64,000 nucleotides of DNA from a virus: the IMG/VR virus record IMGVR_UViG_3300024302_000005, positions 11,503 to 75,502 of that record. One strand, 5' to 3'. Shown here one piece after another: positions 1 to 41,600 of this stretch. Position 1 is the first letter of the stretch; every line of letters begins with the position of its first letter. The notes beneath the pieces are model-generated. The model was given only the letters and a program-made list of their open reading frames with translations. It was not told the origin of the DNA and did no database searches. A program made the translations under genes and the position numbers.

Positions 1-30
1 ACCTGCTAAGGCCATAGATATATTCCTTGA

Positions 31-165
31 TTAGAGTGAAGTATTCCAATCACCCGAAACCATTATCCGGTCCATCACGATACGGTTCTTCACAGAACGC
101 ATGCAATCGGTGCCCGAAACAAGCTGAGCCAGTTGAACTAACTTCAGTACGATGTAGGTACGCAT
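31..165 (-). CDS. small hypothetical protein (44 aa), not in the ORF track
   Basis: ATG at 165 preceded by AAGGAGA on the minus strand; TAA at 31-33; another SD+ATG (at 15) follows and runs out of the window. Confidence 0.55.
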   Translation of the reverse strand: MRTYIVLKLVQLAQLVSGTDCMRSVKNRIVMDRIMVSGDWNTSL

Positions 166-259
166 GGTAATTCTCCTTCTCTCATGGGATCAGGGTAATA
201 GGTATGCGCATATAAGCCTAAATCAATACAAATATCAACATTTAAATCGGTTTATTACT

Positions 260-307
260 GTATACGACACTTAACGGCTGGTTTAATGTCGTATACGACA
301 TTTAACT
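260..307. repeat. overlapping direct/inverted repeat (GTATACGACA twice; TGTCGTATACGACA palindrome)
   Basis: seen directly in the non-coding region between the divergent late and early genes. Confidence 0.6.
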
Positions 308-884
308 TTCTGTAACCCTTTGATAACACCCACTTTCTCAGCCCTAAGAATAAGAAGCGGAAAGACCTCCCTTCGTCGGTCTGTTCCTATAGGCTGCCGC
401 CTCTGTATTTATATATTATATTTAATATATTCCGGGATATCCGTATTGCTTGGAACCCGCTTTCTTCGCTGCCTCTTGATCTACGCTCCCGCTGCGCTCC
501 GCTCCGATCAATCGGGAGCTCGAAAGTCTTGGTTCCCGCAATACAGATATCCCTATTCCAGTAGCTCCAGCAAGAAGGCCGTCCCCACGACCATGATCCC
601 CAACTTCGTAACAACTAACAATGTAAGCATATAAACTCCTACTTATTCCCCATGATAATTAATTATATAACATCTCTTAATTAATTTACCTAATTAGCTA
701 AATAGGAAATTTCCTATTTATTCCAATAAGCTATTAAGCTTAATTATTTTTATTATTTTTATTTTTAATATTAGCCGACTTAAGCAATTTTTTATAATTT
801 AAGTCCGACTGCAGTACTAACTAGGCAGGCCAGCCTCACCGAAAATACCCCCGCCCCTATTTTGCCTTAACGTCCCTTTTACAC

Positions 885-904
885 ACCTGCTATCGCAGGT
901 CAGG
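885..904 (+). promoter_or_regulatory. candidate virion-RNAP hairpin promoter P1
   Basis: ACCTGC-TATC-GCAGGT-CAGG; one of three copies with compensatory stem changes; lies upstream of the first early gene. Confidence 0.75.
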
Positions 905-936
905 TAATTACCTTAACCTTTAACAGGAGAACTCCT

Positions 937-1101
937 ATGAAAACCATCAACATGATCGCAGACATGATCCAGAAAGCCATCAGCGTAGCCAACCGTGTCA
1001 TCAACGGTTGCGACCATGGTGCAGCTATGTTCGAAGATGCCATGGACAACGCCAGGGCCACTCAGCTTGCTGAGATGACCAAAGCAGCAAAGTCTGCTTA
1101 A
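937..1101 (+). CDS. first early protein (54 aa), not in the ORF track
   Basis: AGGAGA SD; MKTINMIADMIQKAISVANRV...KSA; bounded by a promoter hairpin and a terminator. Confidence 0.8.
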   Translation: MKTINMIADMIQKAISVANRVINGCDHGAAMFEDAMDNARATQLAEMTKAAKSA

Positions 1102-1109
1102 GCTCTATT

Positions 1110-1143
1110 CCCAGGACCCTCAGGGGTTCTGGGTTTATCTTTA
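1110..1143 (+). terminator. intrinsic terminator
   Basis: CCCAGGACCC...GGGTTCTGGG stem followed by TTTATCTTT. Confidence 0.7.
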
Positions 1144-1184
1144 TACCTACACATACACACAAAGAGAGAGAGCCTCGAGAGGGA

Positions 1185-1204
1185 GCTTGCTATCGCAAGT
1201 AAGG
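1185..1204 (+). promoter_or_regulatory. candidate virion-RNAP hairpin promoter P2
   Basis: GCTTGC-TATC-GCAAGT-AAGG. Confidence 0.75.
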
Positions 1205-1254
1205 AATAAGGTTAATCCTTATTAACTTAATTAACCCTAATAGGAGGATCTACT

Positions 1255-1458
1255 ATGTCCCTTAAATCTGTAGCTATCTTAGCAATAACCCTGGCTTTCC
1301 TTATAAGCGCAATAATTAAGGCCACTGTAGATAATCTCTACATCTTACCTGATGCTTATATCCAAGGTTATATTGGCTTAGGCATCGATGTGCTTAGCCT
1401 CTTAATCCCTATAATAGGCACTGTCCTTATTACCTTGGAATACAAGGAAGGAGAATAA
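1255..1458 (+). CDS. early membrane protein (2 predicted TM segments)
   Basis: AGGAGG SD; two hydrophobic stretches. Confidence 0.7.
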   Translation: MSLKSVAILAITLAFLISAIIKATVDNLYILPDAYIQGYIGLGIDVLSLLIPIIGTVLITLEYKEGE

Positions 1459-1460
1459 CC

Positions 1461-1691
1461 ATGTCTGGTGTATCTAATGTTGGCGACGGAGCAATACCAA
1501 CACCTTTGACAGGAGGTTACCACATCTACTGTCTTGAGGTGCGTAAGAAAGGACATCAGTTGATGTCCCGGACATTCTACAATAGCTACGACCTGGCCTT
1601 TACAGCGTACTGTAAGGCTAAGGACAATGGCTATAGCACCATCACAGACCTGTTGATTTACCCAGTCTGGGTGGTTGCAGGAGAAAGCTAA
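1461..1691 (+). CDS. hypothetical early protein
   Basis: AAGGAG SD; directly follows the previous gene. Confidence 0.65.
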   Translation: MSGVSNVGDGAIPTPLTGGYHIYCLEVRKKGHQLMSRTFYNSYDLAFTAYCKAKDNGYSTITDLLIYPVWVVAGES

Positions 1692-1695
1692 AGAT

Positions 1696-1731
1696 CAGAG
1701 GCCCTGTAATAAGGGTCTCTGGTTATTCCTT
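1696..1731 (+). terminator. intrinsic terminator (GAGGCCC/GGGTCTC family)
   Basis: CAGAGGCCC...GGGTCTCTG stem; same stem family recurs at ~2278 and ~4001. Confidence 0.65.
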
Positions 1732-1749
1732 AATAGATAGACTGATAAA

Positions 1750-1769
1750 GCCCGCTATCGCGGGTTAGG
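1750..1769 (+). promoter_or_regulatory. candidate virion-RNAP hairpin promoter P3
   Basis: GCCCGC-TATC-GCGGGT-TAGG. Confidence 0.75.
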
Positions 1770-1874
1770 AGTTGTCTGACCTCGATGTCAGAGACCAATG
1801 GGCAATTTTGCCCGAAGGGCTTCGGTGCGCAGCGCCGTTGTCCTTAATTCAAATCCCAACGATAGGAGAATATC

Positions 1875-2240
1875 ATGGGTATGCTTTCAAATAAGACCAA
1901 GACCACAGTCGGCGCAGACAAGACGCCACGGGATCGTTTCATCCTGGGTAACAGCGATTGTTACTTTGAGTCGGCGCAGTACTTGACAGGCCTTATGCCT
2001 CTCGAGAAGGTGAAGAAGCTCTTTGCCAATCCGGTTACTGAGCTCATGGGTACCAAGGGCAAGAGCCTGAAGGTCATGTTCACCACTCCGGACGGTGAGA
2101 TCAAGTTCATGGGCTTCGTCACTGCTGGTGATGCAAGCCTTGAGCTGGATGTCGAGCACATTCCGGAGATCATGGAGCATGTGACTGCCGGGCCAATCCT
2201 GGTAGCCGTTAATCCAGTTGATCTGGTTGCGATGTTGTAG
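1875..2240 (+). CDS. early protein (position and size similar to the N4 gp2 activator; homology not evident)
   Basis: AGGAGA SD; has its own promoter hairpin and terminator. Confidence 0.65.
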   Translation: MGMLSNKTKTTVGADKTPRDRFILGNSDCYFESAQYLTGLMPLEKVKKLFANPVTELMGTKGKSLKVMFTTPDGEIKFMGFVTAGDASLELDVEHIPEIMEHVTAGPILVAVNPVDLVAML

Positions 2241-2277
2241 ATCCCTGCCTGGCCTTAGGCTGGTTCGGATCGGAGCG

Positions 2278-2314
2278 CTGGAGGCCCTGTAGTGGGGTCT
2301 CCAGTCCCTTTTTA
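2278..2314 (+). terminator. intrinsic terminator
   Basis: CTGGAGGCCC...GGGTCTCCAG followed by a T-run. Confidence 0.7.
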
Positions 2315-2338
2315 TAAGCTAATACGGGAGAGCATTCG

Positions 2339-2557
2339 ATGCGCCAACGTAAATCAAGTTATATCCCATTTGGGAACGGAGCTATCTTAGATCCTGAGTT
2401 CGAGGAGATACTTGAACGTATTCACTGGTCTGCAGGAGCTGAGCTATTAACCGATAAGAATGTCGAATCCGTTGAGCATAGAAGAGCTCGGAGGATCCGT
2501 GAGCGTTCTTATACAAGTACCTATTTAGACACCGAAGCGTATCTGGATAGGTCATGA
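2339..2557 (+). CDS. hypothetical protein
   Basis: GGAGAG SD; co-oriented with neighbours. Confidence 0.6.
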   Translation: MRQRKSSYIPFGNGAILDPEFEEILERIHWSAGAELLTDKNVESVEHRRARRIRERSYTSTYLDTEAYLDRS

Positions 2558-2569
2558 CAGGAGGATGTT

Positions 2570-2998
2570 ATGATCGATTCGTTCGATGAAGAATATGCGT
2601 TCCTTAGTAACTTTTACCCTTGTGAAGTTATGTGTACCGAAAGGATCATCTACCCGACTGTTGAGCATGCCTTTCAGGCTATGAAAACAGTTGATCTGGA
2701 TGATCGTCGGATCATTGCAGAGTGCCCTACTCCAGGGAAATCCAAGAGGCTGGGCCGCAAGGTCCAGCTGAGGAATAACTGGAATGCTATACGTATTAAC
2801 GTCATGCATGACCTTCTGGTACAGAAGTTTAATCAAGAGCCCTTTAGCATTCAGCTTATGGAAACTAATGGCCATGAGCTGATTGAGGGCAATCACTGGA
2901 ACGATACGTTCTGGGGAGTATGCCATGGCAAGGGTAGCAATACCCTTGGCAAACTCCTGATGGATATCAGAGAGAAGTTACTATCCGAAGGACCATAA
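2570..2998 (+). CDS. NADAR (YbiA/DUF1768) family N-glycosidase
   Basis: FLSNFY, TVEHAFQAMK, KF, LIE...DTFWG, GxNxLGKLLMDIRE motifs. Confidence 0.9.
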   Translation: MIDSFDEEYAFLSNFYPCEVMCTERIIYPTVEHAFQAMKTVDLDDRRIIAECPTPGKSKRLGRKVQLRNNWNAIRINVMHDLLVQKFNQEPFSIQLMETNGHELIEGNHWNDTFWGVCHGKGSNTLGKLLMDIREKLLSEGP

Positions 2999-3030
2999 GG
3001 CCCACTAACCCTTAAATAGGAGGACATTCG

Positions 3031-3243
3031 ATGTCCAATTACAGTCAAGCTACTGAGTCACCCGAGTACGTTACAACGGGTAACAGCACTATCCACCCTA
3101 CACCTGTATCCGATGAGGATGCAGTGAAGGTTGTTCCTAAATGGCAGTTCGACATGGGTATCCCATGGAAGGCCATGACTCCTCAGCAACAGCGTGGCCG
3201 GCGTAAAGAGATGCGTCGTAATTCGTTGAAATCCAATGGATAA
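3031..3243 (+). CDS. hypothetical protein
   Basis: AGGAGG SD. Confidence 0.6.
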   Translation: MSNYSQATESPEYVTTGNSTIHPTPVSDEDAVKVVPKWQFDMGIPWKAMTPQQQRGRRKEMRRNSLKSNG

Positions 3244-3415
3244 GACCATGTTGATGCCACTGTTAGCGCTTATGTTTGCGCTTGCAGTGGTAGGCCTCTT
3301 TGTACTCCACAATGAGACAAAGAGAATAGGCTACAACAACGGATACGCAGCATGCGAATCCAATGAGCTAAGGCATATGCCTTTAACCCTTAAACCTTAA
3401 GAATGGAGTCATTCG

Positions 3416-3685
3416 ATGGCCGTTAATCCTGAAGACCATATCACTACCGATTGGGGTACTGATCTGGGAGTTAAGACGCTGGCATTGAGCGCAATCAATG
3501 CATTAGAGGCTGCACTACCTGGAGAGCCATTCTCCAAGCAGTTCGGTTATGAGTTCAAGAAGTGGTGCACAGAACATAACGTGTTCTACTACTGCCGCTG
3601 CGGTGAAGACTTCAGCTGGATTCATGGGACTCATTTGGCCCGTGAAGCCAAGGCTGACTACGTACTCATGGAGAGTCTCTCATGA
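3416..3685 (+). CDS. hypothetical protein
   Basis: GGAG SD; ATGA coupling to the next gene. Confidence 0.6.
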   Translation: MAVNPEDHITTDWGTDLGVKTLALSAINALEAALPGEPFSKQFGYEFKKWCTEHNVFYYCRCGEDFSWIHGTHLAREAKADYVLMESLS

Positions 3686-3873
3686 GCTACGTGTTAGCTG
3701 GTTGGGTTAACAACCACATCGCGCTGCCAGAGCAACGGTTCTCTACGCCAGATGACGCTATGAGTGCGTTTGAGGCCGTTGTGGCAGCTCCTGTCACGCC
3801 TGTTGAGGTTACCCTGTGGGAGACACAGGGTAGGCAATACAAGCTAATCAAGGACTTCTATGATGTTCAATGA
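3682..3873 (+). CDS. hypothetical protein
   Basis: ATGA overlap with the upstream gene. Confidence 0.55.
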   Translation: MSYVLAGWVNNHIALPEQRFSTPDDAMSAFEAVVAAPVTPVEVTLWETQGRQYKLIKDFYDVQ

Positions 3874-4000
3874 GAACTTCAAGATCCGTCACTTAATCAT
3901 CTATTCAATAGTCGGAGCAGCAGGGACCTATGGGTTCCTGGTGTTCGGGCTGTCGTTAGGTCAATTCCTCAAATAGCTAATACCGTTGGAATACCAACAG

Positions 4001-4037
4001 AATAGAGGCCCTTAATTGGGTCTCTATTTCTTTTTTT
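4001..4037 (+). terminator. intrinsic terminator ending the early block
   Basis: AATAGAGGCCC-TTAATT-GGGTCTCTATT followed by a T7 run. Confidence 0.8.
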
Positions 4038-4058
4038 AAGATGGTGTAGGAGAACACT

Positions 4059-6068: not shown

Positions 6069-6300
6069 ATAACCGCAGCCCAGTAATCAAGGTTAAGGCT
6101 GAGGATCAATGCATTGGGTGTGTATTTTACCACCCGGAATGCCTCGATCTTAAGAAGTTCCAACCTAATAACCGGAGATGGTGTGCTAACGGATCCTATC
6201 ATGCTCCTGCCATCTGTAAGGCCGAGGGTACGATATTTGTACCAAGGGTTAACCGATAAAGCCGGCTACCGCCGGTTGGGTATTCCAAAGGAGATCAAAA

Positions 6301-6985: not shown

Positions 6986-6986
6986 C

Positions 6987-7709: not shown

Positions 7710-7716
7710 CCAAATT

Positions 7717-8953: not shown

Positions 8954-10705
8954 TTGTTTATGTCCGAAGAATGCATCGACCAATATGCACTAGAGACCTC
9001 GTGGTCTACCCGCTTAGCTGATGACATCGTCATCGAAGCCATCCAAGGGGACATTCCCTTGAATATGGAACTAAAGATCCTGGATGTTCTCACCGAGATC
9101 AACCGGGGCAAAGTCCCAACCAAAGATCTCTTTATCCGTTTGTTCACCATTGTCCTGCGGGATAAGGTGGGTAAACCCGTCCAGGCTATAGCTACCCAGA
9201 TGGGGTTTGCTGCTGGAATCAAGAGTGCTTCTAAAGCATTCGAGTGGGGAATTCTGCTACTTAAGGAATGCCGTGAGGCAGGCCTGTATAAGTTGGAGAA
9301 GACGGAAGAAGAGTGGTATGTCCGTCCAAACTTCACTTTGGACAAGCAAACTTGCAAAAAGTTGGATAAATTGCAGTATTTACCTCCAATGAAGACCGTG
9401 CCAATTGATTGGACCGATAACCACGACGGTGGGTGGCTCTGGGAAACCAAGCACATACTCCTCGGGAACCGGTTCACTAAGCACGATATGCCTCTGGCAT
9501 ACGATGTCATCAATACTCTCCAAGGCATAGCCTGGGAGATCGATCCGGATACCTATCTGCTCGAGAAGCAGACTAATCATAACCTTAATAAGAAGAAATT
9601 CTTACGGGTCATTGATGCCTATTTAGGTCATCCCTTTCACTTTGTATGGCGTTATGACTCCCGCGGTAGAAGCTATTCCTCGGGATATGACCTAAACCTT
9701 CAAAGCAACGAATATGGTAAAGCCCTTATTTCGCTGCATAACAAGGAAATGATCACCAAAGCTGAAAACCTGTTGGTGGCCATAGCTAACCATGCCGGCA
9801 AGGATAAGCTGACATGGGAAGAGCGAATCGCTTGGGCTATCAGCGTGGAAAACACTGATGACATCGAGTGGGAAGAGCCTATCCTGGGACGTAAGGCTAT
9901 TCGTGCATATGAAGATATGCAGGCCCGTAAACCTTCCGGATACGTTATGAGCCTTGATGCTACGGCATCTGGGCTACAGATCATGGCAGCTCTATCGGGA
10001 TGCCAAGAGACGGCTAAGTACACCAATATGGTGGATCCCAATAACCGGTACGATCTGTACACTGAGGTAGCTGAAATGATCAATGATCAGCTGCCTAAGC
10101 CAGTACCTCGTAAAGTCACTAAGCAATGCGTAATGACCCACTACTATAACTCTAAGGCTACGCCTAAGGGTTTGCTCAGCGAAGAAGAGCTGGCGGTGTT
10201 CTACAAGACCACCGAAGGGCTCCTACCGGGGGCTGAGGAGGTCATGAAGGTTATCAACATGTGCTGGGATGACCAAGCAGACCATCACTCTTGGGTGATG
10301 CCTGACGGCCATACAGTGTACGTACCAGTGGTGGAAGCCACTAACGCTACGTATGTTGATGAAGAACTCGGTGATATCCCGCTCAGATTCTATGAGCAAG
10401 GTAAGTCCGAGAACTACAGGTCTCTGTGCCCTAATGTTATCCATAGTGTGGATGGCTATGTGGCTCGAGAGATGATTCGTCGATGCGACTTCCAGCTTAG
10501 CCATATCCATGACTGCTTTGTGTTTAGCCCTGATCACCTTCAGGACGTTGCACAGGCGTATCGTGAGATCATGGCAGAGATTGCTCGAAGCGATCTACTA
10601 CAAGATATCCTTATCCAGATCACCGGTGATAACACTCACCGGATCACCAAGATGAGTACTGATTTGGATGAATGTATCTTAGACAGCAGCTACATGTTGT
10701 CGTAA
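8954..10705 (+). CDS. T7-type RNA polymerase, N4 RNAPII-like (gp15+gp16 fused)
   Basis: DSRGRSY, LDATASGLQ (motif A), RKVTKQCVMTHYY (motif B), IHSVDG and IHDCF (motif C) all in one ORF. Confidence 0.92.
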   Translation: MFMSEECIDQYALETSWSTRLADDIVIEAIQGDIPLNMELKILDVLTEINRGKVPTKDLFIRLFTIVLRDKVGKPVQAIATQMGFAAGIKSASKAFEWGILLLKECREAGLYKLEKTEEEWYVRPNFTLDKQTCKKLDKLQYLPPMKTVPIDWTDNHDGGWLWETKHILLGNRFTKHDMPLAYDVINTLQGIAWEIDPDTYLLEKQTNHNLNKKKFLRVIDAYLGHPFHFVWRYDSRGRSYSSGYDLNLQSNEYGKALISLHNKEMITKAENLLVAIANHAGKDKLTWEERIAWAISVENTDDIEWEEPILGRKAIRAYEDMQARKPSGYVMSLDATASGLQIMAALSGCQETAKYTNMVDPNNRYDLYTEVAEMINDQLPKPVPRKVTKQCVMTHYYNSKATPKGLLSEEELAVFYKTTEGLLPGAEEVMKVINMCWDDQADHHSWVMPDGHTVYVPVVEATNATYVDEELGDIPLRFYEQGKSENYRSLCPNVIHSVDGYVAREMIRRCDFQLSHIHDCFVFSPDHLQDVAQAYREIMAEIARSDLLQDILIQITGDNTHRITKMSTDLDECILDSSYMLS

Positions 10706-29510: not shown

Positions 29511-29680
29511 TGTGGAAAAACATTAAGTATTTCCTCTACACCCTGATTACTCTCGCCGTAGGTATCCCAGTGTTACTGGGCCTATGGTGGAGCATTCAGG
29601 TTGTTGTAGTCATCATCATCGGTGGACTAGTGTTTGTTGTTTACAAAATTTTAGATACTGAGCAAATTAAAAAGTCTTAG
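29510..29680 (+). CDS. small membrane protein (56 aa), not in the ORF track
   Basis: TAATG coupling; MWKNIKYFLYTLITLAVGIPVLLGLWWSIQVVVVIIIGGLVFVVYK...; overlaps the 3' end of the vRNAP gene. Confidence 0.6.
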   Translation: MWKNIKYFLYTLITLAVGIPVLLGLWWSIQVVVVIIIGGLVFVVYKILDTEQIKKS

Positions 29681-32600
29681 TAAACCAATCCCAGACATCT
29701 TCGACGTTAGATGGGCCAGCTATTGTAGAGGCTGAATCTAGCAGGTCACCTTGTCCCAACAATGTTGGCATGAGGTTGCCTGTTAGAGGTCCGCTAGCGT
29801 TAGCTAAGGTCTCTACATCCAGGCCATACTGCATGCCAGCTGCAACACCAATACCAGTTGGCGATCGCTGCAGCATGTTACGCACTGATCTAATATTACG
29901 AAGCTTATAGGTCAGGAATGGTGAGAAGCCCATGGAGTTTAGTACCTCCAGGATCGGGTGCATATTCTCATCAAACAGTACGAACTGATCGATAGCATCA
30001 TGCAGTGCGTCCTCAAAGGACTGCCCTTTCACATCCACTGCATGGCTAATCATTACATACCTACCCAAGAAATCAGTGATTTGCACGATTTTCTTGTGGG
30101 TACGGTAGACCTCACTATCTCTGTGCAAGACGATATTCTTCGCAATAGACGTCAGCTGACTAGGTATTTTGTCAGTATATTGTGTAACCTTATCCTGCTG
30201 CATGACACTGTTCATCCGGTTTAAATACCCCTTGGAAGATGACGTATTTACGTCCTCCACCACTAGGGAGTTAAGACCGAATGCGCTGAGCAGGTGAATA
30301 GGGTTATTATTCACTTCAGCTGTTACAGCATCATACTCAGATTGCACTTTAGGCTTCTCGAGTACCGAGGCTACTTGCAGCTTTTGATGCAGATCTCTCT
30401 GCTTCTCGGTATCTGCCTCATATCTAATATACGCTTGATACCCTTCCCGCATCTTCTTAGCAGTGTATGCTGGGGAAATTCCGCGGATGGTTAGAGCCAG
30501 CAGGTTACTGACAAAGTTGTTAATCACCACCATCAATGTGGCCATTACAACACGCTCCATACCGAAGGACATTACCTCTCGGATGCCAGCATATCCCCTC
30601 CGAATAAACGTCTTCATCCAACCTAAAGATTCATTCTGCAGGAACTCAAGGTTAGCCGGGTTCAGGGCACTATACCCAAATGTCTTATACACAATATTTT
30701 CACGCACCATGAACTTACCGTCCAGGGAGAATTTGTGCATGTACTCTCTGACCTCCCTAGGGAGCTTACGGTACTGCTCATGATACTTGGACTTAGGATC
30801 CAGGATATCCACAAACATCTTCTCATTGCCTGGATACACCTTCACCCACTCTTCGCCCAATACGTCTATAGTGGCTTTGTCTGCATCAATAGTGTTCTTC
30901 TTATTGATGTAGGAAGACCTCATGTGAGCAAACACATTCTGAAATTCCATATCAGGTTGGAAGATAGCTTCTACGCTATCTGCATTCATGATTACCCGGT
31001 AATCAACGATGTTATTCTTGCCATCCCGGATAGGGCTGAGACGTTGCTCTTCGTCTTCAATACCCATCTTCTCCAGATTTGATTCCCTCTTGTGGATCTT
31101 GGCAATGTGGGCCCGGATCGCAGATATATCTGGTGTCTTATCGGCTTTCTGGAACTTCTCATTTTTAGCTAAAATATCAGACAATAAGGTACCGCTGTGA
31201 TGCAGACCAGTTGTCGACAGGATACCCGATACGTGGCGGTTCTCAGGCATCGATCTAGACACATACATCACGTTATGGGCCTGAGGTACTCCAGGGATGT
31301 TACCCATCTTGTAAACGTGTGGGTAGCCCTTCCTGGCCATGGCTTTACGTTCCTCTGGAGTATCTACTCCAGTGATCATGTCGGTCAGGTCATCAATACG
31401 ATCTACAGTGAAACCCTTCTGGGTCTGGATACCGTTACCGTCAAATAGATTATCTAAAGACATAGCTACGAATGCCCTGTGCCTATTCAGCATAAACTCA
31501 AAGGCGTTGGTATCCGGATCAGCTTCGAGCTCTCTGGCCATCATATCTTTGACCACTGCATTATCTTCGCTCTTCTGACTAAGCAATGCAGACAGTGTAG
31601 CAATGGCATCCATTCTGCGGATGGTATTTGCGTTTAAGGCATCACCAGTAAGATACGTGGCCGCTATTGTGGATACGTTAAAATGCCCTTGTGGACGTTT
31701 ACGCTTCTTGGTAGCCAAGAAATACCCCAACTCCATGGTGTATTTGAATGCCATAGATGTAGATTTAAGATTAGATGCTTTAGCTAATTTCTTGATCTCT
31801 TGCTTAATTAGAGCAGGATTGCCGATCAGCTTAACGATTTGCTGTGGTGTCATGCCTACGTCGTCAGCCAGTAGGCTCTGCAGATCAGTCTTCAATACCA
31901 CGCGGGTAATAGCTTCACGAGCTTGTTTGCTGATCTCTTCCGAGTTAACAGATTTCCATGCAGCATTCATGGTGCGCACGGAATCTCGCTCCACTTGTTG
32001 GAATAGCTTGTTAATATTCACCTTGGCAAACAGCAACCGCTTAATAAGCTTGAGCGTAAGAGCTCCTTTGCCTACTTCATCAGCCAATGCTTTAGTGAGA
32101 CCGGTGATCTGACTGTACCCAGCAGTCACCATGGCGTCCCTAGCTGCACCTTCACCGAGAGCAGCGACACCAATAGCAGCAGCTGATCGGGAAACCTTAC
32201 CCAGTGCGTTATTAGGAGAAGCCTTAATAGCTTTGTGCACTGCAGCAGAGATGAACTCTCTGATCATCTTATCAGAGCCACGTACCAGATCTCTTGTCTT
32301 GGTCTCTAGCTTACTGGCTTGGGAATCATGCCTAGTCTGGATATCAATGAGAGATACCAAAATAGCTAGCGATTCCTCATGCGCATTCTCTTTGTTCTTA
32401 CGAAAGATTACTCGAGTAAACGAATCTACTATTAGATCAATCAGGTGGACAAACCGGCCAGCTAAGGTCGTACCGCGGTCAGGCAATACCGTTGTGAAGC
32501 TTTGAGTGATCCGGATCATCGCAGGATTAGTAGTGGCATACGCCAAGAATTCTTCAGGGAGATGAGCAGCATCTGGACCAAATACATAATTGTATTGATC

Positions 32601-35600
32601 CTTAGCTAGCTTGATCTCACTCGGAGTAGCAGTACCTGGGATATGGCTGAGGAAGGCTTTAAATCCTCCCTGCTTATCGACAAGCTTCTTGGTCTGCTTA
32701 CGCACCTCACGGATCTGGTCACCTATCAGAGGGTTATCCCGAATAGCCTGAACAGTCATGGCATGCAGCAGTTCATGCGCATACACCTCCTGAGGAGAGT
32801 ATTCGTTACGATTACCAGGCAACTGCCTGCTCAGAGATACCGTCATACGCTTGTTAACGCTATCGTAGGCACCTTGAGTAACCCCATTGATCTGTTCCAC
32901 CGTCATACGGACAGCACCTATGGAGTCCAATCCTCGGCCCATTGTGTCGATAATACGCTGTAGTGTAGCAGAGTGAGAGTCCATCTCTTGCTGGGTACCG
33001 TAATAATGGCGAGAGATGTTCTTAAAGCGAGAGAGCAGAGCAGTGACACTAGCCTTCGTAATATCCTTGGAGAACACCGTCTTCTCATCGCTTTTCTCTT
33101 GGTTACCCAGAGAATTATACGCCTCTACCACAGCCTTTATGTCAGCATCGATAGTAGCTTGGGTCTCTCCAAGATCTACCGTTACCTCGTACTTACGTAG
33201 CTCAGCTTCCATCTTGGCAATGTTGCCATCATAGGCTGCTCCAACTTTGGCACGATAACCTTCCAAAATAGTGGTGTTATTCGTGGTATCCCCAGTCAGC
33301 AGACTAATAATTATTTCTCTTACATTAATCCGATCTTCCGTAGGGAACATCTCTTTGAGGGTCTCGGTCATTCCGCCGATGTACGGGTTATTTATGCTGT
33401 CTGCCAAAGCTATATTCACAAAATCACGAGCTGTTTCAGCAGTGTACTGAGCTAATATATTAGCTACTTCGTGAGGAGAATTGTTTCTGAACATCCCAGT
33501 AATGTAGTTACGCACGGAATCTGCAAGCCTAGCTACTGCAGGGTGGATCAGGAACATGGCCATCTTGTGAGCAGTACCAGCTGCCTGGATCTCTGCTACA
33601 GCAGAGTCCATGGACTTACCAGCTTCAGGGTTAGTCTCGGACATATTAGGAATATACATCTGACTGGGCTCTAGACCCTCTGTAGATTCGATTTCTCTTA
33701 GCTCATCCTTCTTCTGAGTGGCTTCATTAGCATGTGAGATAACTACCTGCCGCAGCTCTGCAACATCTTTTTTATCTGTTCCTTCTAAAAACCGGTTAAC
33801 GTGCGCAGTGTCACGGATCCAGTTTTCTACCTCTGTCATCAAGGCAGTCCCGTTATCCGCATCCAACTGCTCAGTTGCAATAAGGACCTTCTCCATCTGA
33901 TCTTTCATGATCAGAGACAAGTTCACATCAGGAGAGAGACCTAACCGCTTAAACTCTGCATTATATATTTCAGCAAATTCTGCTAATAGCTCAGGACGAC
34001 CAAATGCTGCATCGTACAGTGGCAGAAGGTGAGGTACTTTATCTAATGACAGAGCCAGCAAGGCAGCATCCGTATTGATAATACCTCGGATCAGCGCGCT
34101 AACTCCAGGTGCACTAAACGTCTGTTGCCGGGCAGTAGCCGTGACATCTCGGGTACCTCCGTCAACGTGATCTTGCACACGAACACTTACGGTATGAGCG
34201 TTGCTATCAGACTTATCCGATACCCGTTTACTCATATCAATAAATGAGTCTACGCCTGCGTCAGACAATGGGCCCTTATATTGTGGCAGCCACTTCTTCA
34301 GCCCATCCTGAACTAGAGCAACCGTCTCAGATTCAGTAAGGCTAGATCGTTTTTCATCAGCTAGTTTTTTATCCCTAGCTGCAATGAAATGTGCCATGAA
34401 TACGGCATGCATGATCTCACCGGCTTGAACCACAGCCATCCGGTAATCCTTGGTATCTCCAAGGAGAGCATCCAATCCTCGAGCTAATCTAGGCTCAATG
34501 ATTTGCTTGATTACATTCTGGAAGATCTCTTCGTTAAACTCATGCCCCTTATGCATGTTGTTCTTGATCTTGTTGCCTACATTGTTGCCCATACCCAGGA
34601 CATCCAACTGGCGTTCAAACTCTTCAATCTGCTTAGCACCCTCTACTTTGTCAGCAATATAGAGCCTACGCAGTACACCAATCTCTTGGTATAGATGAGA
34701 GATAATAGTTTTGGCCACCCCAGTAGCTACGGCAGGATTGCCGGCACCATACTGAGACATGACGAAAGGATACTTAGCTAGATCTCGTGCATCCTGATCA
34801 GCTAGGTCAGGGAACAGGTAAGCAAGAGCCTGTGACCGTGCTACGTACGTCTCAGACAGCTTATCCAACCAATCCTGATCTTTGCCCTTCTCTTCTTCAT
34901 GGTACGTAAGGGCTACGTCCATTCCGGAATAGTGCTGAATTAGTGCACCCAGATCCATATAGGTATCGACAGGGATCTTGTCCCCATCATCCCTATCCTT
35001 ATTAAGGGCGTGGATACCCCCCTCAAGGTGGGTGGTTTCCTCAGGTGTTTTACCAATATACACCGCAGTCTGGTTAAGGTGCTTCTCCAGAGTTTCCCGA
35101 TCATTAAATGTAGGGAACTGGAATATGTTGATAGCAAACCCGTTAGCTACACCATCAATCTCCGCAGGGATATCAGACTCGAAGTTCATCTTGGGAGCTT
35201 CTGGGGCTACGGGAATAGCTTCACCGGTAGCCTTGGCGGTTTCTACTGCAACAGCATGCTTATCCATCGCCGTCATATGCGCCTTCCAGGCAGCATGGTA
35301 AGGAGCGTATATGGATAGGGCATGCAGGCCACCCAGGAGAGAGATATCAGCTCCTGAATATGGGCTATTTTCTTTGGTGTACAGTTTCAGAACTACAGCA
35401 TTAAATTTCTCCATGTCCACTTTAGACATGTTGGAGTCAGCTGCCCTAAGAAGAGCTATGGCTTCCTGGATATCAGCATCTTCCATGTACTCATTGAAGG
35501 TGCTTACGATATTCACCGGTACCCGCTTATCTACTTTGTAGCCTAGGGCGTACATCGCAGCGAACTGGAACAGGTGCAGGTTCTCTTTGGTAAATGTGGT

Positions 35601-38600
35601 CGTCCCCTGTGGAGCAACGGCCCACCGCGTAAAGTGACTGTTCTGTGGGTTTACACCCAGACCAACCTGCATAATACGATGCTGAGACTGCAGGGCGTAT
35701 TTGAAGAAGAAGTTCTTCAGTTTGCCTGCCGTGCTAAATTTAAGAACACTATCCAGTGCATCTGTCTTACTGCCATTAGAGGCATTGGCCGAAGTAACAT
35801 ACGCCTTGGTGTCTGTTTTCTCATCTACGGGAACAACCCCCATCAGGAGTTCTACGGTACCCCGGAAATCTTCAGACATTGCAGCTATTAACGGCAACGT
35901 AGAGGTTTCACCCCAGACTACATTCTGCAGTTTCTCTAGCACTTCACGCATCTTCTTTGGAACATCACCAAAGGATCTGCGGATGCTGCTAGCCGTAAAC
36001 TTTGCAGGAGCCTGCAAAGGAGCTGAATTAGAGTCGTTCTCTGCACCATCAGTCAGCACACTAATTGCTGCATTATTTAGTTCAGTGCTTTTCTCGAGCT
36101 CCTCTACGGAACCCTGCTCAACAGCGTGAGTAATATGTTTGTATTGCTGTCCGTGAGTAAAGTTCCTGCCATCACCTTCTTCGGATTCAGCAACTTCTTT
36201 AGCTTGTTGGGGCGTATACCCAAAATCCCATTTGCCGACGTTAACATTAATGAATGCTACGGTACTGCCAGGAACCTGTGCTTCGTTATTTATGATCTCA
36301 AAGGCCATGGATCCCAGGGCAGTACCTAAAGAATCCACGTAAGCAGCAGTGTATTTACTGCTAGCTGAAATACCCAGGGATGCCAGGATGACATTAGCTA
36401 CAGACTGCACAGCTTGTTTGTGATCTAGGCCGACCCCTTCGAGGGCATTATAGTCAGTTGCAGATAGTGCCCTACGCCGATCGCCGTACAGGAACTCCCC
36501 TTTTTCTTGGTCTGAAGATAGCGGATTATCATTAGTATTTTGAGCAATCCAGTTCTGAGCACCCATCATCAAGGCAAACACCACCTGAGGGGGCAGCACG
36601 GCTTCCCCTGTGAGCACTGTCTTACCGTCTTCGACTTTGGTAGAGAACTGCTCAAGGAGCCTCAGAGGGGTCTTCAGGGCAGGGGCAAAGCCATTACCTG
36701 CTATGTAATCGTCAGAAGTAACCAGATTAGCGTAGGCAGCAGCGTAAGCAGTATACCGGTTAGCGTACAGCTCAGCGCCTTCATCACTTAGCCCGATAGC
36801 CCGCAAGGCATCCATCAGTGTCTGAGGACTGTTGAAAGCCTCTGACGGGATGTTAAACAGCCCTACCCGCTTCTTGGTAATTTTTACCAGTTCAGCGAAG
36901 GTTTTATTCTTGAGGGTAATACCTGATTTGGTAGAACCCATGATCTGCTGATTAACGAATTCGGATACGAAGCTTACCGTAGCATCCAATACAGGCAAGG
37001 TTTCGGTCAGGATGAGTTTCTTAAACTCACCTGCCTTCTTGCCTACCTTAGTACCCGCCTTTTTAATGGGGGTGCTGAAAGTCTCGTTAGCTTGCCCGGT
37101 CTCTACCAGCAGCATACCACTGGCTTCGAACACCTGACCTAACAAGGTATTGTCTGTTTTAGCTAGACCTAACAATTTAGAGACACTGGCAACCAACTGA
37201 GACCAGATAGAGCCCTTGGGCTTAGCTGCATTAGGTAGATCGATTGCCTTCATATCCATCAGCAGACGCTGAAGATGCTTGTTGGTCAGGCCGTACGTCA
37301 TTAACTCGTCAGCATGCTTAATTGTAGTGAGCCTATTAAGCATGCTTTTATCATAGTCAGAAACATTATTAGCAGGATCCGCAACATACTCTTTGATGTG
37401 CGCAGCAATGGCTTCTAGTTGAGCTACAGCATCTCGTTGAGTTTGACTGTTAGGGGATTTGAATGCACTAACGGCTGCCACATGCAGTAGTTCATGCAGA
37501 GTAAGCTCTTCATTTAAGGCACCGGGACTAAGCGTAACTAGCTTAGCAACTACTTCTCCGGTTCCCTCTATAAGATCGTAGTCAACATACCCGTCAAATT
37601 CTTCATCTTCTCGCTGTACTCGCACACCTGTGTATTGAACCTTTACAGCACCTACTTTACCAACCAAGGCTTTAGCGAGCTCTACATAGGCGGGGTTAGT
37701 AGCTGTATCAATAAGCTGCTGAAGCAAGACATTCGCTGTTGTGCCCTTCTTGATTAGGGCAATTACTTTGTCCGTTAAACTAGCGGAGTCATAGTCCTTC
37801 TGGCGTTGGGTTAGCTCGGTAGTGCTGGCAGCAGTAACCGTGCCTTCAGGAGCACTTTCCACCTTCTCTGTGGTGTCTGCACCGACATTGGTATTCTGTG
37901 AGCTAAAGTTAATGGAGTCCGCGGACACTTCAGTAGAGCCGGCATTCCTATTAGCAGAATGCATAACCAACTTATCCGTAGGACGGCTGGTAGCCACATA
38001 GAGTGCCTGATAGCTATTCTTGGGAGAACCATTGGTCCACCCGCCAATGCTATTCAGGCCATCCTCCATAACATACACATTACGGTACGTAGAGCCTTGG
38101 GCCTTCCAGGCAGTGATCGCGTATGCAGGATGCATCTCGATATTAGCTATGCGAGATACAGCGACATTCTGCTCTTTGAACTTGGTGTACTGCTCTGCAT
38201 TTAGACGTTTTTTAGCCTTAGCGTATTCAGCTGAAATAGCCTCTTGCAACGTCTTTCCATCAGGGAAAGTATCCGTATCAGTTACAGCAGGAATTCGTGT
38301 TTTTATTTCCTCGCCGTTAATAAGGTCCCTCATCAGGACCTCTTGATACGGAATAGATACCCCTTCAAATTCCAGGTGCTCCACCTCACCTACTTCAAGG
38401 ATTTCATATTCACTACTATTCCAGATAGCTGCATCGCCCTCATCCTTGGGCTGCAACTTCACAGTGGAATAGGACATCAACACATCACCTACAGCATGGA
38501 TGCCGTAGACACGGGTATCGCCAAACAACCGCTCAAAGATATCTCTGTTCAGATTAAAGACAGAGGCACCTTGGTTCCGATTATTCTCATTAAATGCCGT

Positions 38601-41600
38601 AACGATCCGAGTGCTTAATGGGTTCAGCAAGTAATCTTTAACGAAGGAGGTAGCTACGAATTCAGCGTCTCCGGTAAATATGACACCAGAGTTAGTAGAT
38701 TCTGAGAAATTAGTCTTCCGGTCACCTTTAGTGATCAGAACCGCTTTCTCTTTGATCTTCTCTTGCAGCGTCTTAACATCATCCAAGACAGCAGTGAACA
38801 ACCCAGTAAGCCCTAAGATAGGAGACTTACCAATTTGCCGCTGAGGCTTGAGTAACTTGACCCGGTTAGGGTATTCAGCTTCATCGAAGACAGGGCTATT
38901 AGAGTTACGGCCGAACAGGGCACTAGCAGCAACCTTGAGAGCTTCTTTAGCTGAACGAATAGGTGCCAGCTGTGCAGAATCACCGAGGAAGAGTACTTTT
39001 ATACCACGTTCCGCGGCTTTCTCTTTAATCAGCTGGGTCATGTTCTCACCCAGCATCGATGCTTCATCGACAACCAGTAATTTAATGCCCTCTAGCTTAT
39101 CACCATCCAGATCTTCAATATCCTCTAGACCCTCTTTCCTCTGTTTTTCATCAGTAGGAATGAGACCTAAAGCAGTCCAGATAGTACTGGCTTCCTCGCC
39201 GGTAGCCTTAGCTAGGATAGCTTTAGCTTTATTAGTGGTGGCTGTGTACAGAATTTGTTTCTTGGTCAAGCCAGAGTTTTCGATGATCTTGCTAACAACA
39301 GTGGTTTTACCAGTGCCACCACGACCTTCAAGAACAAATTCCCTAATAGCTGATCCGGTATCTTTCAGCCAATCACCAATCTTGTCGATCGCTACCCGCT
39401 GTTCAGCGTTAGCGTATCCACCAGGAACCACCTCATATTTAGGCTCTTTGATGACTGTGTCATCTTCAGCTACCGTATCTTCTTCTGTCTCCGATACCTC
39501 CCCAGCAGGGACGTCCTCTGTTTCGGCTGCCTCAACATCTGGAGACTCTTCTGTGTTGTCCGGAGTTCCGTCCTGGTCCGCAGCATCATCTCCCGCATCA
39601 ATATTAGCCGGTGGAGCGTCTGGGGGAGGTGGGTTCTGCTCAGATACCCCTTCTTGTTCAGAAGATGTATCGCCAGCTGTGCTGCTAGCTGTATCAGGTG
39701 CAGCCTCAGCTGAGACGGTTTCCGTGCCTTCAAGATCGTTAATTGCATCTACGTCCTCTTCGGTAATATCTTCAGCTGTTCTGTTTTCTTCCTGTGCGTT
39801 TAATTCCTCTACGGCAGCAGCTAATGCCACTGCTTCTCGCGTAGCAGCAGCAGCAGTCTGAGCGAAGGTGGTGTCCTTGTGGCCCATGGCCAGCTTGAAC
39901 ATAGCTTCACCGTAATCAGCTTCCTTGCTGACGGTACCAATGAACTCACCAGAGTTCTGGTGGATCTCGTATACATATTCTTTATTGTCTCGAGCTATTT
40001 TGAATGACTCTGCGGTCATCTCAGTATCTTGGGTGTACTCCATTACCCGGTTACCGCCAGCAGCGACATTACCTCTTACGTATACCGGTTTCCCTGTCTT
40101 AGCTTCCTTCTTGGCAGCAGCCACAAAAGCATTATGCTTACGACGAATATTACCAGAGTGCACAGACATACGCTGAAGAGAAGTCTTCATGGCCAGTACT
40201 GCAGGAGCATTACCTGGATCAGCTAGTAGTGTCTTTGCCGCGGTATTGATCTCGTCGAAATACGTGTTGAAACCTTTCCAACGGGTAGAGGTACCATCGA
40301 TGCTCTCTTGGTGTACGTCTTCAGAGCTCTTACCGGCTTTAGTTAATACAGCCTTCTCTATTTCAGTTAGCTCTTTACCCAGTTTCTGGGTAATTTTCAG
40401 GTTCTCTACCTGGGCTTTATCTGCTTTGGTCTTGGCTTCTTTATCAGCTTTTTCAATAACAGCAGGAGCTACATCCTCCCCAGATATGACATTACGGAAA
40501 GTACCATCTTCTTTTTCCGCAGCAGCCGCTTCCTGTTCCTCAGCCTCTTTAGTAGCTACAGCAAGTGTAGCCAGGAATTCAGTTTTCTTAGCTTCTTTAC
40601 GGGCAATTTGTGCCTCTGTCAAAGCTCTCTTACCTACCCGTTGTAGAGTAGCTAAAGACTCTTTAAGAGTCTCCGGATTGTCAGTTATGGTGTCGAGGGC
40701 AGCATCTAATTCAGTATCGGTAATCTCCGATACGGCCAGTGCTTCCTCAGCCGCAGTCTTAGCAGCTTCAGCTGCTTTAGTCTCCGCTACCTCGGGGCGT
40801 ACCCGTTCAGGCAAAGCGTCATATTCTGCTTGTACAGCTGCACGGTCCTCTGCGGTGAACTCTGGATTCTCAGCAGTTAGCTGCTCCAGTAGATCAGCAC
40901 GTTCAGCCAGAATAACCTCTTTATTGGGGTGATTAGGCGTATCTTTGAGGATTTGCTCGATCACATCAACACGTTCATTAATGGCATCACCCGCAGGTGT
41001 ACCTTGAACAGTTTCTGATTGAGCTAATTGCTCACGCAATCCTGCAGCTCTGGATTTAGCAGTAGCTGCTTTAATAGGAGTTACGACAGCTGCTTTGGTT
41101 ACTCCAATAGTTGCTCGTGCAGCCACCATGGCGCTTACACCACCAGGAGTACCTAGAGCTTCTGCCAAGGCATCATGAGCAATTGCACCGGTATCTGTGA
41201 TCTTACCAGCTTGAGCTAGCTGTTCGGCCGTAGCAGTAATACCACCAGATACACCCTCACCAACCAGCGCTAGTGTTGGGCGCACTATGGTTAGATTAGC
41301 TATAGAAGCTGGTAGAGATTTATTTACAGCTCTAACTGTTTTCTGTACCCAATTAAGGCGAGCTATTGGGATGGCTTTAAGTGCAGCCATATCACCAAAT
41401 TTCTCAGCCACTGTGGCTACAGCAGACCATGCTTTAATTCGGCCAAGTTCTTTAGCTGAAGGCTCTCTGTTATTAGTAGTCCTGAATTCCTCTATAGCTT
41501 GGTTACCTTTACCAACAGCAAGTGACGTCAGAATAGCTGACTGCGCAATTGGACCACCAACAGTGAAGGCAATCATGTAGGGAACGCTGTCTATACCAGA

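What the first reader, a model, noticed from the sequence alone, without database searches (positions are those of the whole stretch)
885..1769. Three co-varying hairpin promoter candidates with a 4-nt loop
Seen: ACCTGC-TATC-GCAGGT-CAGG (885), GCTTGC-TATC-GCAAGT-AAGG (1185) and GCCCGC-TATC-GCGGGT-TAGG (1750). Stem changes are compensatory, the loop is invariant (GATA on the template strand) and AGG follows each. Every copy heads a short unit closed by a terminator. Known: N4 vRNAP promoters are template-strand hairpins with a 3-nt loop. Inference: these are the cognate promoters of the helicase-fused vRNAP and define a different tetraloop recognition code, possibly useful as an orthogonal system.
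Basis: partly seen in the sequence, partly recalled or inferred. Interest (0 to 1): 0.7.

Follow-up and report, generated by a model that had tools for sequence, protein, structure and literature searches.

The report
Four-base-loop hairpin promoters, N4-like phage
Four small DNA hairpins at the front of this uncultured marine N4-like phage genome are very probably the start signals read by the RNA polymerase the phage injects; this is an expected feature, but the loop has four bases instead of the textbook three.

Summary
The three hairpins xCxxGC-TATC-GCxxGT-x-AGG lie at window 885-904, 1185-1204 and 1750-1769. No other copy exists in the 75.5-kb genome.

Each copy sits in a gap on the coding strand before an early gene, upstream of the phage's own T7-like RNAP gene. 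P1-P3 each head a unit closed by a terminator.

On the template strand the core reads GCGRTAGC. This is the N4 heptamer GCGRAGC with one extra T. It keeps the C:G closing pair, the loop's 5'G and 3'A, a purine at -11, G at -10 and -8, and a G start ten bases after the loop. GCGATAGC is a measured "mini-hairpin" with Tm 71 C.

Relatives carry a hairpin at the same anchored position, with their own stems and loops of 3-5 nt. Five isolates tested here (N4, LUZ7, three vibriophages) all have T-N-C triloops.

Seawater RNA contigs cover the gene units but not the two gaps that hold P1 and P2.

Verdict: N4-type virion-RNAP early promoters in a tetraloop variant, confidence about 0.8. Orthogonality is untested. 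This scan has already noted tetraloop candidates in other uncultured N4-like phages.

The parts
885..904 (+). P1: hairpin ACCTGC-TATC-GCAGGT (885-900), then cAGG. Predicted start is G903/G904, the 9th/10th base after the loop.
   Evidence: Preceded by the clade-conserved block CCCCCGCCCC...TTTACAC. An RNA contig covers 926-1113.
1185..1204 (+). P2: hairpin GCTTGC-TATC-GCAAGT (1185-1200), then aAGG. Predicted start is G1203/G1204.
   Evidence: No RNA contig of four runs covers 1114-1222. One contig starts at 1223.
1750..1769 (+). P3: hairpin GCCCGC-TATC-GCGGGT (1750-1765), then tAGG. Predicted start is G1768/G1769.
   Evidence: Shares the upstream GATAAAGCC with P4. One RNA contig starts at 1781, but three others bridge this site.
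6261..6280 (+). P4 (new): hairpin GCCGGC-TACC-GCCGGT (6261-6276), then tGGG. Predicted start is G6279/G6280. It lies 21 nt before the ATG at 6301.
   Evidence: It lies in the 42-nt gap between ORF 6067-6258 and ORF 6301-6564.
851..884 (+). Conserved upstream block (C-rich run ... TTTACAC) that anchors P1 in this phage and its relatives.
937..1101 (+). First early ORF (54 aa), the unit driven by P1.
   Evidence: No PHROG hit.
1110..1133 (+). Terminator T1, closing unit 1.
   Evidence: -20.3 kcal/mol, z -4.2.
1255..1691 (+). Two early ORFs (67 and 76 aa), the unit driven by P2.
1693..1724 (+). Terminator-like hairpin T2, closing unit 2. It has a weak U tract.
   Evidence: -22.2 kcal/mol, z -5.7.
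1875..2240 (+). Early ORF (121 aa), the unit driven by P3, behind a structured 105-nt leader.
2277..2305 (+). Terminator T3, closing unit 3.
8960..10705 (+). Single-chain T7-like RNAP (the N4 RNAPII counterpart), downstream of all four hairpins.
   Evidence: phrog_2051, E 1.6e-99.
29667..42413 (-). Virion RNA polymerase, 4248 aa, with an inserted SF1B helicase. It is the presumed reader of the hairpins.
   Evidence: phrog_2206 'virion RNA polymerase', E 3e-59 and 1.6e-111. (AAA_30/PIF1, aa 1002-1484).

Best explanation
P1-P4 are the early promoters of the injected virion RNA polymerase, and they work as in coliphage N4.

Inferred mechanism: after the left end of the genome enters the cell, each inverted repeat extrudes. 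The template (minus) strand folds into a 5-bp hairpin capped by the unusually stable mini-hairpin 5'-GC-GRTA-GC-3', which has a sheared G:A pair and a C:G closing pair. The pyrimidine-looped non-template hairpin is weak and is melted. The vRNAP binds the template hairpin, reading the stem G at -8 and the loop G and purine at -10 and -11. It starts RNA with G at the conserved GG, 9-10 bases after the loop. Short early units are then transcribed up to RNA hairpin terminators.

The difference from N4 is one extra loop base, a T between the -11 purine and the 3' A of the loop.

Shown here: the sequences, their rarity, their position, the conservation of the structure among relatives, and the match to the N4 core. 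Inferred: extrusion, recognition by the vRNAP, and the exact start site.
For: (1) Rarity. There are 3 exact copies against 0.02 expected. None of 200 simulated genomes had such a cluster. The relaxed motif gives 4 true copies, all on the + strand at 0.9-6.3 kb.

(2) Context. The genome is N4-like. It has a vRNAP, a T7-like RNAP at 8960-10705, and a major capsid protein 53-61% identical to those of Schitoviridae. All four hairpins lie in gaps directly before early ORFs and upstream of the RNAP gene.

(3) Match to N4. N4 P1-P3, extracted from EF056009, read GTTGC-TTC-GCAAC ttatGG, AAGAAGC-TCC-GCTTCTT ttGG and AAGCTGC-TCC-GCAGCTT ttGG. They share the GC/GC closing dinucleotides, the T...C loop ends, and a G at the 10th base after the loop. 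The N4 review lists the C:G closing pair and the loop's 5'G and 3'A as needed for extrusion, and -11A/G, -10G, -8G and +1C as read by vRNAP. All of these are present here.

(4) Biophysics. d(GCGATAGC), the exact template octamer of P1-P3, is listed with Tm 71.0 C among GCGNNAGC mini-hairpins. The same review names the N4 promoter as a GCGNAGC case.

(5) Relatives. An anchor that does not depend on the hairpin (C-rich run + TTTACAC) marks P1 in 8 phages. Six of the 8 have a hairpin there in the top 0-2% of 30-nt windows, with unrelated stems and loops TATC, TAAA, GTC, CTCCA, TTC and AGTC. The other two carry the bare N4 heptamer GCTTCGC, repeated 4-5 times on the + strand of the early region only. 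Families with the same core are found in 13 loci on the + strand upstream of the RNAP gene, against 3 loci (one AT-rich family) on the - strand.

(6) RNA. In four seawater metatranscriptome runs, contigs cover 926-1113 (almost exactly P1 to T1) and 1223-3722. None covers 629-925 or 1114-1222. DNA runs hold all sampled words of 600-4100.
Against: No 5' end has been mapped. RNA contigs cannot show starts, and three of them run across P3, which means read-through or DNA carry-over.

The loop has 4 nt, whereas every experimentally defined vRNAP promoter (N4, LUZ7) has 3.

The polymerase domain is too diverged from N4 gp50 to align, so retention of the promoter-contacting residues could not be checked.

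The covariation statistics on alignment A1 are partly circular, because the sequences were chosen as hairpins.

In some relatives the loops do not keep the G...A ends on the template strand (TAAA in L124, CTCCA in L123). The mini-hairpin rule is therefore not universal in the clade.
Confidence: 0.8

Rival explanations
1. The hairpins are promoters of the phage's second, T7-like RNAP (middle class), as described for LUZ7 middle promoters, or they are shared by both polymerases.
For: LUZ7 middle promoters are GC-rich hairpins with a 3-4-nt loop about 15 bp upstream of a G start.
Against: All four copies lie upstream of the RNAP gene itself. P1 is the first element after the conserved left-end block, so something must be read there before RNAPII exists. 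No copy lies in the 10.7-29.5-kb replication-gene region. The stem is 5 bp and the G start is 10.5-11.5 nt from the loop centre, as in N4 early promoters, not about 15 nt.
Confidence: 0.07
2. They act in RNA, as processing or stability hairpins or attenuators within read-through transcripts, not as DNA signals.
For: Three RNA contigs bridge P3, so the P3 hairpin is present in some RNA. Early leaders here are rich in RNA structure.
Against: P1 has no upstream transcription unit on this strand. No RNA contig contains the P1 or P2 hairpin. r(UAUC) is not a stable tetraloop class, whereas the DNA template strand is a measured mini-hairpin. The conserved T-x-RGG after the stem, at the N4 start spacing, has no role in an RNA hairpin. 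Rfam gives no match.
Confidence: 0.05
3. They are binding sites (operators or cruciform sites) for an early regulatory or replication/packaging protein.
For: They are inverted repeats near the genome end, in a region with other conserved blocks.
Against: The stem arms change by compensation while the loop and closing pairs stay fixed. That is the signature of a folded strand, not of duplex half-sites. Strand asymmetry, a downstream GG and an ORF after each copy all fit promoters.
Confidence: 0.05

Closest known systems
Coliphage N4 early promoters P1-P3, read by virion RNAP gp50 (review PMC4496689; sequences taken from EF056009)
   Same: Both lie at the left, first-expressed end on the coding strand of early genes. 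Both have a 5-bp or longer stem with covarying bases and a GC...GC core with a C:G closing pair. On the template strand the loop has a 5'G and 3'A, with a purine at -11 (A in some copies, G in others in both phages), G at -10 and G at -8. RNA starts with G at the 10th base after the loop. Both genomes encode a gp50-type virion RNAP.
   Different: The loop has 4 nt (template GRTA) instead of 3 (GRA). There are four copies, none directly before the RNAP gene. A T is conserved right after the stem. The polymerase core is not alignable to gp50 by sequence, and the vRNAP carries an inserted helicase.
Pseudomonas phage LUZ7 early promoters, mapped by ONT-cappable-seq (PMC9163698)
   Same: Both are hairpin promoters of an N4-like vRNAP with a G start. 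The GC-TAC-GC cores were recovered here in the LUZ7 record.
   Different: LUZ7 has a conserved 3-nt loop and a start 13-14 nt from the hairpin centre. Here the loop is 4 nt and the GG lies 10.5-11.5 nt from the centre.
Mini-hairpin DNA d(GCGNNAGC)/d(GCGNAGC) (Hirao; review PMC13037366)
   Same: The template strand of P1-P3 is exactly GCGATAGC, listed with Tm 71.0 C. P4 is GCGGTAGC, which fits GCGNNAGC.
   Different: This is a biophysical motif, not a genetic element. Here it caps a longer stem within a promoter.
Tetraloop vRNAP-promoter candidates noted earlier in this scan in other uncultured N4-like phages (e1-5323995, e1-5848861; AI notes, unpublished)
   Same: Both are four-base-loop hairpins before early genes, swapping with triloops at matching sites in relatives.
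   Different: Those are other genomes with other loop sequences (template GTWA, or TA[A/G][T/C]). The notes were not checked here beyond this genome and its own relatives.

Membership tests
N4-type virion-RNAP DNA-hairpin early promoter | Lies in the first-expressed (left-end) region, on the coding strand, directly upstream of early genes | tested here: met
   All four copies are on the + strand at 0.9-6.3 kb after the late/early strand switch. Each lies in a gap before an ORF and upstream of the RNAPII-like gene. The physical genome end itself is not known, because this is a metagenome contig.
N4-type virion-RNAP DNA-hairpin early promoter | Inverted repeat giving a 5-7-bp stem whose variable bases covary | tested here: met
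   The 5-bp stem is CnnGC/GCnnG. The two inner positions change with compensation among the four copies.
N4-type virion-RNAP DNA-hairpin early promoter | Three-nucleotide loop (GC-rich heptamer centred at -11) | tested here: not met
   The loop is 4 nt (TATC x3, TACC x1) and the core is an octamer. N4, LUZ7, two Pontosvirinae vibriophages and JA-1 all gave 3-nt loops under the same scan.
N4-type virion-RNAP DNA-hairpin early promoter | C:G loop-closing pair, with 5'G and 3'A of the template-strand loop (sheared G:A, needed for extrusion and stability) | tested here: met
   The template strand reads GC-GATA-GC or GC-GGTA-GC. GCGATAGC has a measured Tm of 71.0 C. Formation of the sheared pair itself is inferred.
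N4-type virion-RNAP DNA-hairpin early promoter | Template bases -11 purine, -10 G, -8 G and +1 C at N4 spacing (+1 eight bases after -8) | tested here: met
   This was tested by sequence only. Counting from the stem: C(-9) G(-8), loop G(-10), A or G(-11). The 10th base after the loop is G on the coding strand in all four copies.
N4-type virion-RNAP DNA-hairpin early promoter | The genome encodes a gp50-type virion RNA polymerase | tested here: met
   phrog_2206 'virion RNA polymerase', E 3e-59 and 1.6e-111, on the 4248-aa ORF.
N4-type virion-RNAP DNA-hairpin early promoter | Specific initiation by the vRNAP on single-stranded or supercoiled template at the mapped +1 | not testable with these tools
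   There is only a weak hint. RNA contigs start 12-22 nt after the predicted starts and leave the P1 and P2 gaps uncovered.
N4-type virion-RNAP DNA-hairpin early promoter | Dependence on host gyrase and SSB for hairpin extrusion and activation | not testable with these tools
   No host is known. This needs an experiment.
LUZ7-type RNAPII (middle) hairpin promoter | GC-rich stem of 6 bp or more, 3-4-nt loop, about 15 bp upstream of the start, in the middle-gene region | tested here: not met
   The stem is 5 bp. The GG is 10.5-11.5 nt from the loop centre. All copies lie upstream of the RNAP gene and none in the middle region.

The most novel reading that the evidence does not exclude
The tetraloop promoters and the helicase-bearing vRNAP form a self-contained initiation system. 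The fused Dda-type helicase opens the duplex so that the GCGRTAGC template mini-hairpin forms without host gyrase or SSB. The extra loop base makes the pair orthogonal to N4-type triloop polymerases. This would be a single-polypeptide, hairpin-addressed RNA polymerase that is active on relaxed double-stranded DNA.
Probability: 0.1. Interest if true: 0.8.

Novelty: new variant of a known kind. Interest (0 to 1): 0.5.

Why it matters
N4 vRNAP is the best-understood case of a polymerase that reads a DNA hairpin, and its rules rest on one phage with 3-nt loops.

This phage offers a natural variant. It keeps every base N4 vRNAP is known to contact and the sheared G:A cap, but adds one loop base. 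Its relatives place 3-, 4- and 5-nt loops at the same site.

That gives a ready-made mutant series for asking what sets loop-size tolerance and promoter specificity in this polymerase family. It also gives a rule for annotating early promoters in uncultured Schitoviridae: look for GCGNAGC or GCGNNAGC on the template strand, with a G start 9-10 bases after the loop.

The practical value as an orthogonal expression system is speculative until the enzyme is tested.

Tried and rejected
- Exact-pattern scan of IMG/VR for CNNGCTATCGCNNGTNAGG. It gave only single, scattered hits and no contig with several copies.
- blastn of the early 4 kb against phage records gave no match.
- TATC hairpins in 34 related loci: none found. 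The loop sequence is specific to this phage.
- BLASTP of the vRNAP against N4 gp50 aligned only the C-terminal region. phmmer of the polymerase domain against PDB found no N4 mini-vRNAP hit. tblastn against phage records gave 24% identity or less over parts. The N4 promoter-contact residues (W129, K114, R119, D901, R904) could therefore not be located.
- Davydova 2007 and Gleghorn 2008 are not held. Whether N4 vRNAP tolerates a 4-nt loop could not be read.
- Papers on Achromobacter, V. cholerae and Caulobacter N4-like phages say nothing on promoter loops.
- The same-core filter with a GG requirement recovered N4 but not LUZ7 or the vibriophages. It was replaced by an intergenic filter without the GG requirement.
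- Rfam at permissive threshold on 1-12000 gave nothing.
- A helicase link: the helicase domain is absent from the vRNAP of two near-complete relatives, but the sample is too small to relate it to loop size.
- The degenerate match at 61936 has no stem and lies inside a minus-strand gene. It was treated as chance.
- Searches were input slips.

Full report
**What the DNA is**

The window is bases 11503-75502 of a single 75,502-bp virus contig. It has the layout of an N4-like phage (Schitoviridae):
- A 4248-aa minus-strand ORF at 29667-42413 matches the PHROG family 'virion RNA polymerase' (phrog_2206, E 3e-59 and 1.6e-111). It carries an AAA_30/PIF1-type helicase domain at residues about 1002-1484.
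- A T7-like RNAP lies at 8960-10705 (phrog_2051, E 1.6e-99).
- The major capsid protein is 53-61% identical to those of many Schitoviridae isolates.

The DNA occurs in seawater metagenomes. No isolate is close. The early 4 kb has no blastn match among phage records.

**The observation**

The Watson-Crick stem is 5 bp (CnnGC/GCnnG), and its two inner positions change with compensation. The sixth 'pair' is A-T, G.T and G.T, so the conserved feature there is the T that follows the stem.

Chance is excluded by three tests:
- GCTATCGCN5AGG is found 3 times against 0.02 expected.
- The whole genome holds no other GC-closed TATC hairpin of 5 bp or more.
- In an a-priori test, none of 200 first-order Markov genomes of the same size had three hairpins sharing loop and closing pairs within 1 kb. 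Twenty-three had two.

**A fourth copy**

Relaxing the loop revealed GCCGGC-TACC-GCCGGT-tGGG at 6261-6280. It lies in the 42-nt gap between ORF 6067-6258 and ORF 6301-6564 and shares the upstream nonamer GATAAAGCC with P3.

The motif is therefore C-n-n-G-C-T-A-Y-C-G-C-n-n-G-T-n-R-G-G. With up to 2 mismatches allowed, it has 5 matches against 0.28 expected. The fifth, at 61936, has no stem and sits inside a minus-strand gene.

All four true copies are on the + strand, upstream of the RNAP gene. P1-P3 each head a short unit that ends in a strong RNA hairpin: 1110-1133, 1693-1724 and 2277-2305, with dG of -20 to -24 kcal/mol and z of -3.3 to -5.7.

**Comparison with N4, made with tools rather than memory**

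From the N4 record EF056009, the same hairpin scan returns P1-P3:
- P1: GTTGC-TTC-GCAAC ttatGG, at position 90, before gp1.
- P2: AAGAAGC-TCC-GCTTCTT ttGG, at position 557, before gp2.
- P3: AAGCTGC-TCC-GCAGCTT ttGG, at position 4546, before RNAP1.

The N4 core is GC-TYC-GC. Here it is GC-TAYC-GC. On the template strand this is GCGRAGC against GCGRTAGC.

The review of N4 RNAPs (PMC4496689) states three things:
- The C:G closing pair and the 5'G and 3'A of the loop are needed for extrusion and stability.
- vRNAP reads -11A/G, -10G, -8G and +1C.
- The start lies eight bases after -8.

Counted from the start side, this phage keeps all of these: C(-9) G(-8) in the stem, G(-10), and A (P1-P3) or G (P4) at -11. 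N4 likewise has A at -11 in P1 and G in P2 and P3. The 10th base after the loop is a G on the coding strand in all four copies. The extra base is a T between the -11 purine and the 3'A.

**Biophysics**

The review of mini-hairpin DNA (PMC13037366) defines GCGNAGC and GCGNNAGC as extraordinarily stable two-pair hairpins with a sheared G:A pair. It cites the N4 promoter as a natural GCGNAGC case. It lists GCGATAGC, the exact template octamer of P1-P3, with Tm 71.0 C, whereas a pyrimidine loop (GCTTTTGC) melts at 33 C.

Nearest-neighbour DNA folding gives only -4.3 to -6.6 kcal/mol and little strand difference, but that model ignores the sheared pair.

The inferred asymmetry is a stable template hairpin and a weak non-template hairpin. 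This is what the N4 model requires.

**Relatives**

A search with the RNAPII-like protein fetched 34 loci from IMG/VR with 45-74% identity. None has a TATC hairpin, so the loop is phage-specific.

The element is conserved as a structure. A block that does not depend on the hairpin (C-rich run, then ...CGATCTTTTACAC) precedes P1 here and marks the same spot in seven other phages. In six of the eight, the next 30 nt fold into a hairpin in the top 0-2% of windows of that locus. Their stems are unrelated and the loops are TATC, TAAA, GTC, CTCCA, TTC and AGTC.

In each phage the same loop plus closing pairs recurs 2-4 times nearby with different stems. Examples are GC-TAAA-GC four times in L124, GC-TGAC-GC in L142, GC-TGCC-GC in L143/144 and AC-TGGC-GT in L136.

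A uniform filter was applied: same core, at least 2 copies within 4 kb upstream of the RNAP gene, and GG 8-12 nt after the loop. It finds such families in 13 loci on the + strand, against 3 loci (one AT-rich family) on the - strand.

The two anchored phages without a long stem (L120/L121 and L122, the former among the closest by RNAP identity) carry aACACCnnGCTTCGCwTAnnnGG four or five times. These copies lie only on the + strand of the early region, and the last sits just before the RNAP gene, as N4 P3 does. That is the N4 heptamer with a bare 2-bp stem.

A gapless alignment of 15 tetraloop copies gives 91% paired cells against 58% in shuffles, and a covariation score of 0.87 against 0.23. 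I give this little weight, because the rows were chosen as hairpins.

**Isolates**

With an intergenic same-core filter, the results were:
- N4: GC-TCC-GC.
- LUZ7: GC-TAC-GC.
- Vibrio phages 1.097.O and 2.130.O: AC-TAC-GT, three times each.
- Vibrio phage JA-1: AC-TCC-GT.

All are T-N-C triloops. This agrees with the literature read here, which reports 3-nt loops for N4, LUZ7/LIT1/PEV2 and the Pectobacterium CB1-like phages. I found no paper describing a 4-nt loop for a vRNAP promoter.

Earlier AI notes of this scan have flagged tetraloop candidates in other uncultured N4-like phages (e1-5323995, e1-5848861). The variant is therefore not unique to this genome, although it is unpublished as far as I could search.

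**RNA**

Four seawater metatranscriptome runs hold parts of the early region as assembled contigs:
- One contig covers 926-1113. The predicted P1 start is 903/904 and T1 is at 1110-1133.
- One contig covers 1223-3722. The predicted P2 start is 1203/1204.
- One contig starts at 1781. The predicted P3 start is 1768/1769.
- No contig of any run covers 629-925 or 1114-1222, while DNA runs hold all sampled words of 600-4100.

This fits transcripts beginning just after P1 and P2. It is weak evidence. Contigs cannot show 5' ends, depth is low, and three contigs bridge P3, which means terminator read-through or DNA carry-over. P4 was outside the stretch laid.

**Rivals**

- Middle (RNAPII) promoters of the LUZ7 type are also hairpins with 3-4-nt loops. 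However, all copies here lie upstream of the RNAP gene, none lies in the middle region, and the stem length and start spacing are N4-early-like.
- An RNA-level role is unlikely. P1 has no upstream unit, the RNA contigs lack the P1 and P2 hairpins, UAUC is not a stable RNA tetraloop, and the conserved T-n-RGG tail has no role in RNA folding.
- A duplex operator is unlikely because the arms covary while the loop is fixed.

**What remains unknown**

- The polymerase core cannot be aligned to N4 gp50 by BLASTP or phmmer and is at most 24% identical to any isolate's vRNAP. I could not check whether the N4 contact residues are kept.
- The two primary papers on N4 promoter binding are not held. The tolerance of N4 vRNAP for a 4-nt loop is unknown to me.
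The sequence evidence suggests the N4 code plus one base rather than a new code.
- The helicase inserted in this vRNAP is absent from the vRNAPs of two near-complete relatives. No relation to loop size can be drawn from that.

**Verdict**

The finding is real, and it is larger than reported: four copies, not three. It is best read as N4-type virion-RNAP early promoters in a tetraloop (template GRTA) variant, with confidence about 0.8.

It fails one defining feature of the N4 family, the 3-nt loop. It meets all the others that could be tested. I therefore class it as a new variant of a known kind, of moderate interest.

Noticed in passing
window 1693-1724, 2277-2305, 4000-4029 (and 1110-1133): The early terminators form a family. 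Three share the arms GAGGCCC...GGGUCUC, including a G.U wobble that would be a C.A mismatch on the other strand. They are therefore strand-specific RNA hairpins. T2 has almost no U tract. They may be the termination signals of the virion RNAP.
   Followed up: partly
L120/L121 (2576-7017 / 5443-9884) and L122 (1034-5854): L120/L121, among the closest relatives, and L122 carry 4-5 copies of aACACCnnGCTTCGCwTAnnnGG on the + strand of the early region only. This is the N4 heptamer with just two G:C pairs and no longer stem, plus a conserved upstream ACACC box. It is a 'mini-hairpin only' form of the promoter.
   Followed up: partly
window 340-400 and 805-884; L121 5085-5440, L122 770-1020, L123 5770-5995: The non-coding stretch between the late and early genes holds blocks conserved across the clade. 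They are TAAGAAnAAGAAG followed by a hairpin, then GCAGTACTAAC followed by a hairpin whose stem covaries between phages, and finally the C-rich run and TTTACAC before P1. This probably lies near the physical genome end (terminal repeat or packaging region).
   Followed up: no
genome 1882-2008 = window 63874-64000: The last 127 bases of the contig are an exact repeat of a stretch 1.9 kb from its start, not of its first bases. This may be an assembly overlap or a real repeat, so the contig length may overstate the genome.
   Followed up: no
window 1205-1223 and 1775-1792: The predicted P2 and P3 transcripts begin with, or lie within a few bases of, a stable hairpin: AATAAGG-TTAAT-CCTTATT, and UCUGAC...GUCAGA. 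The P3 leader (1767-1880) folds at -43 kcal/mol, z -3.6. These may be 5' stabilisers. One RNA contig begins exactly at 1223.
   Followed up: no
window 903-910 vs N4 (L154) 4565-4572: The first eight transcribed bases predicted for P1 (GGTAATTA) are identical to those after N4 P3, and the neighbouring stem arm GCAG is shared. This may be coincidence or a preferred initial transcribed sequence.
   Followed up: no
window 7710-8954: About 1.2 kb before the RNAP gene has no convincing + strand ORF. It contains a 242-aa ORF on the minus strand (8166-8894, TTG start) and several hairpins (8285, 8331, 8502, 8573, 8879). Its coding status is unclear.
   Followed up: no
window 640-800: A very AT-rich stretch with long palindromes (for example TAAATAGGA-AATT-TCCTATTTA at 699-721) lies just upstream of the conserved P1 block. 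No RNA contig covers it.
   Followed up: no
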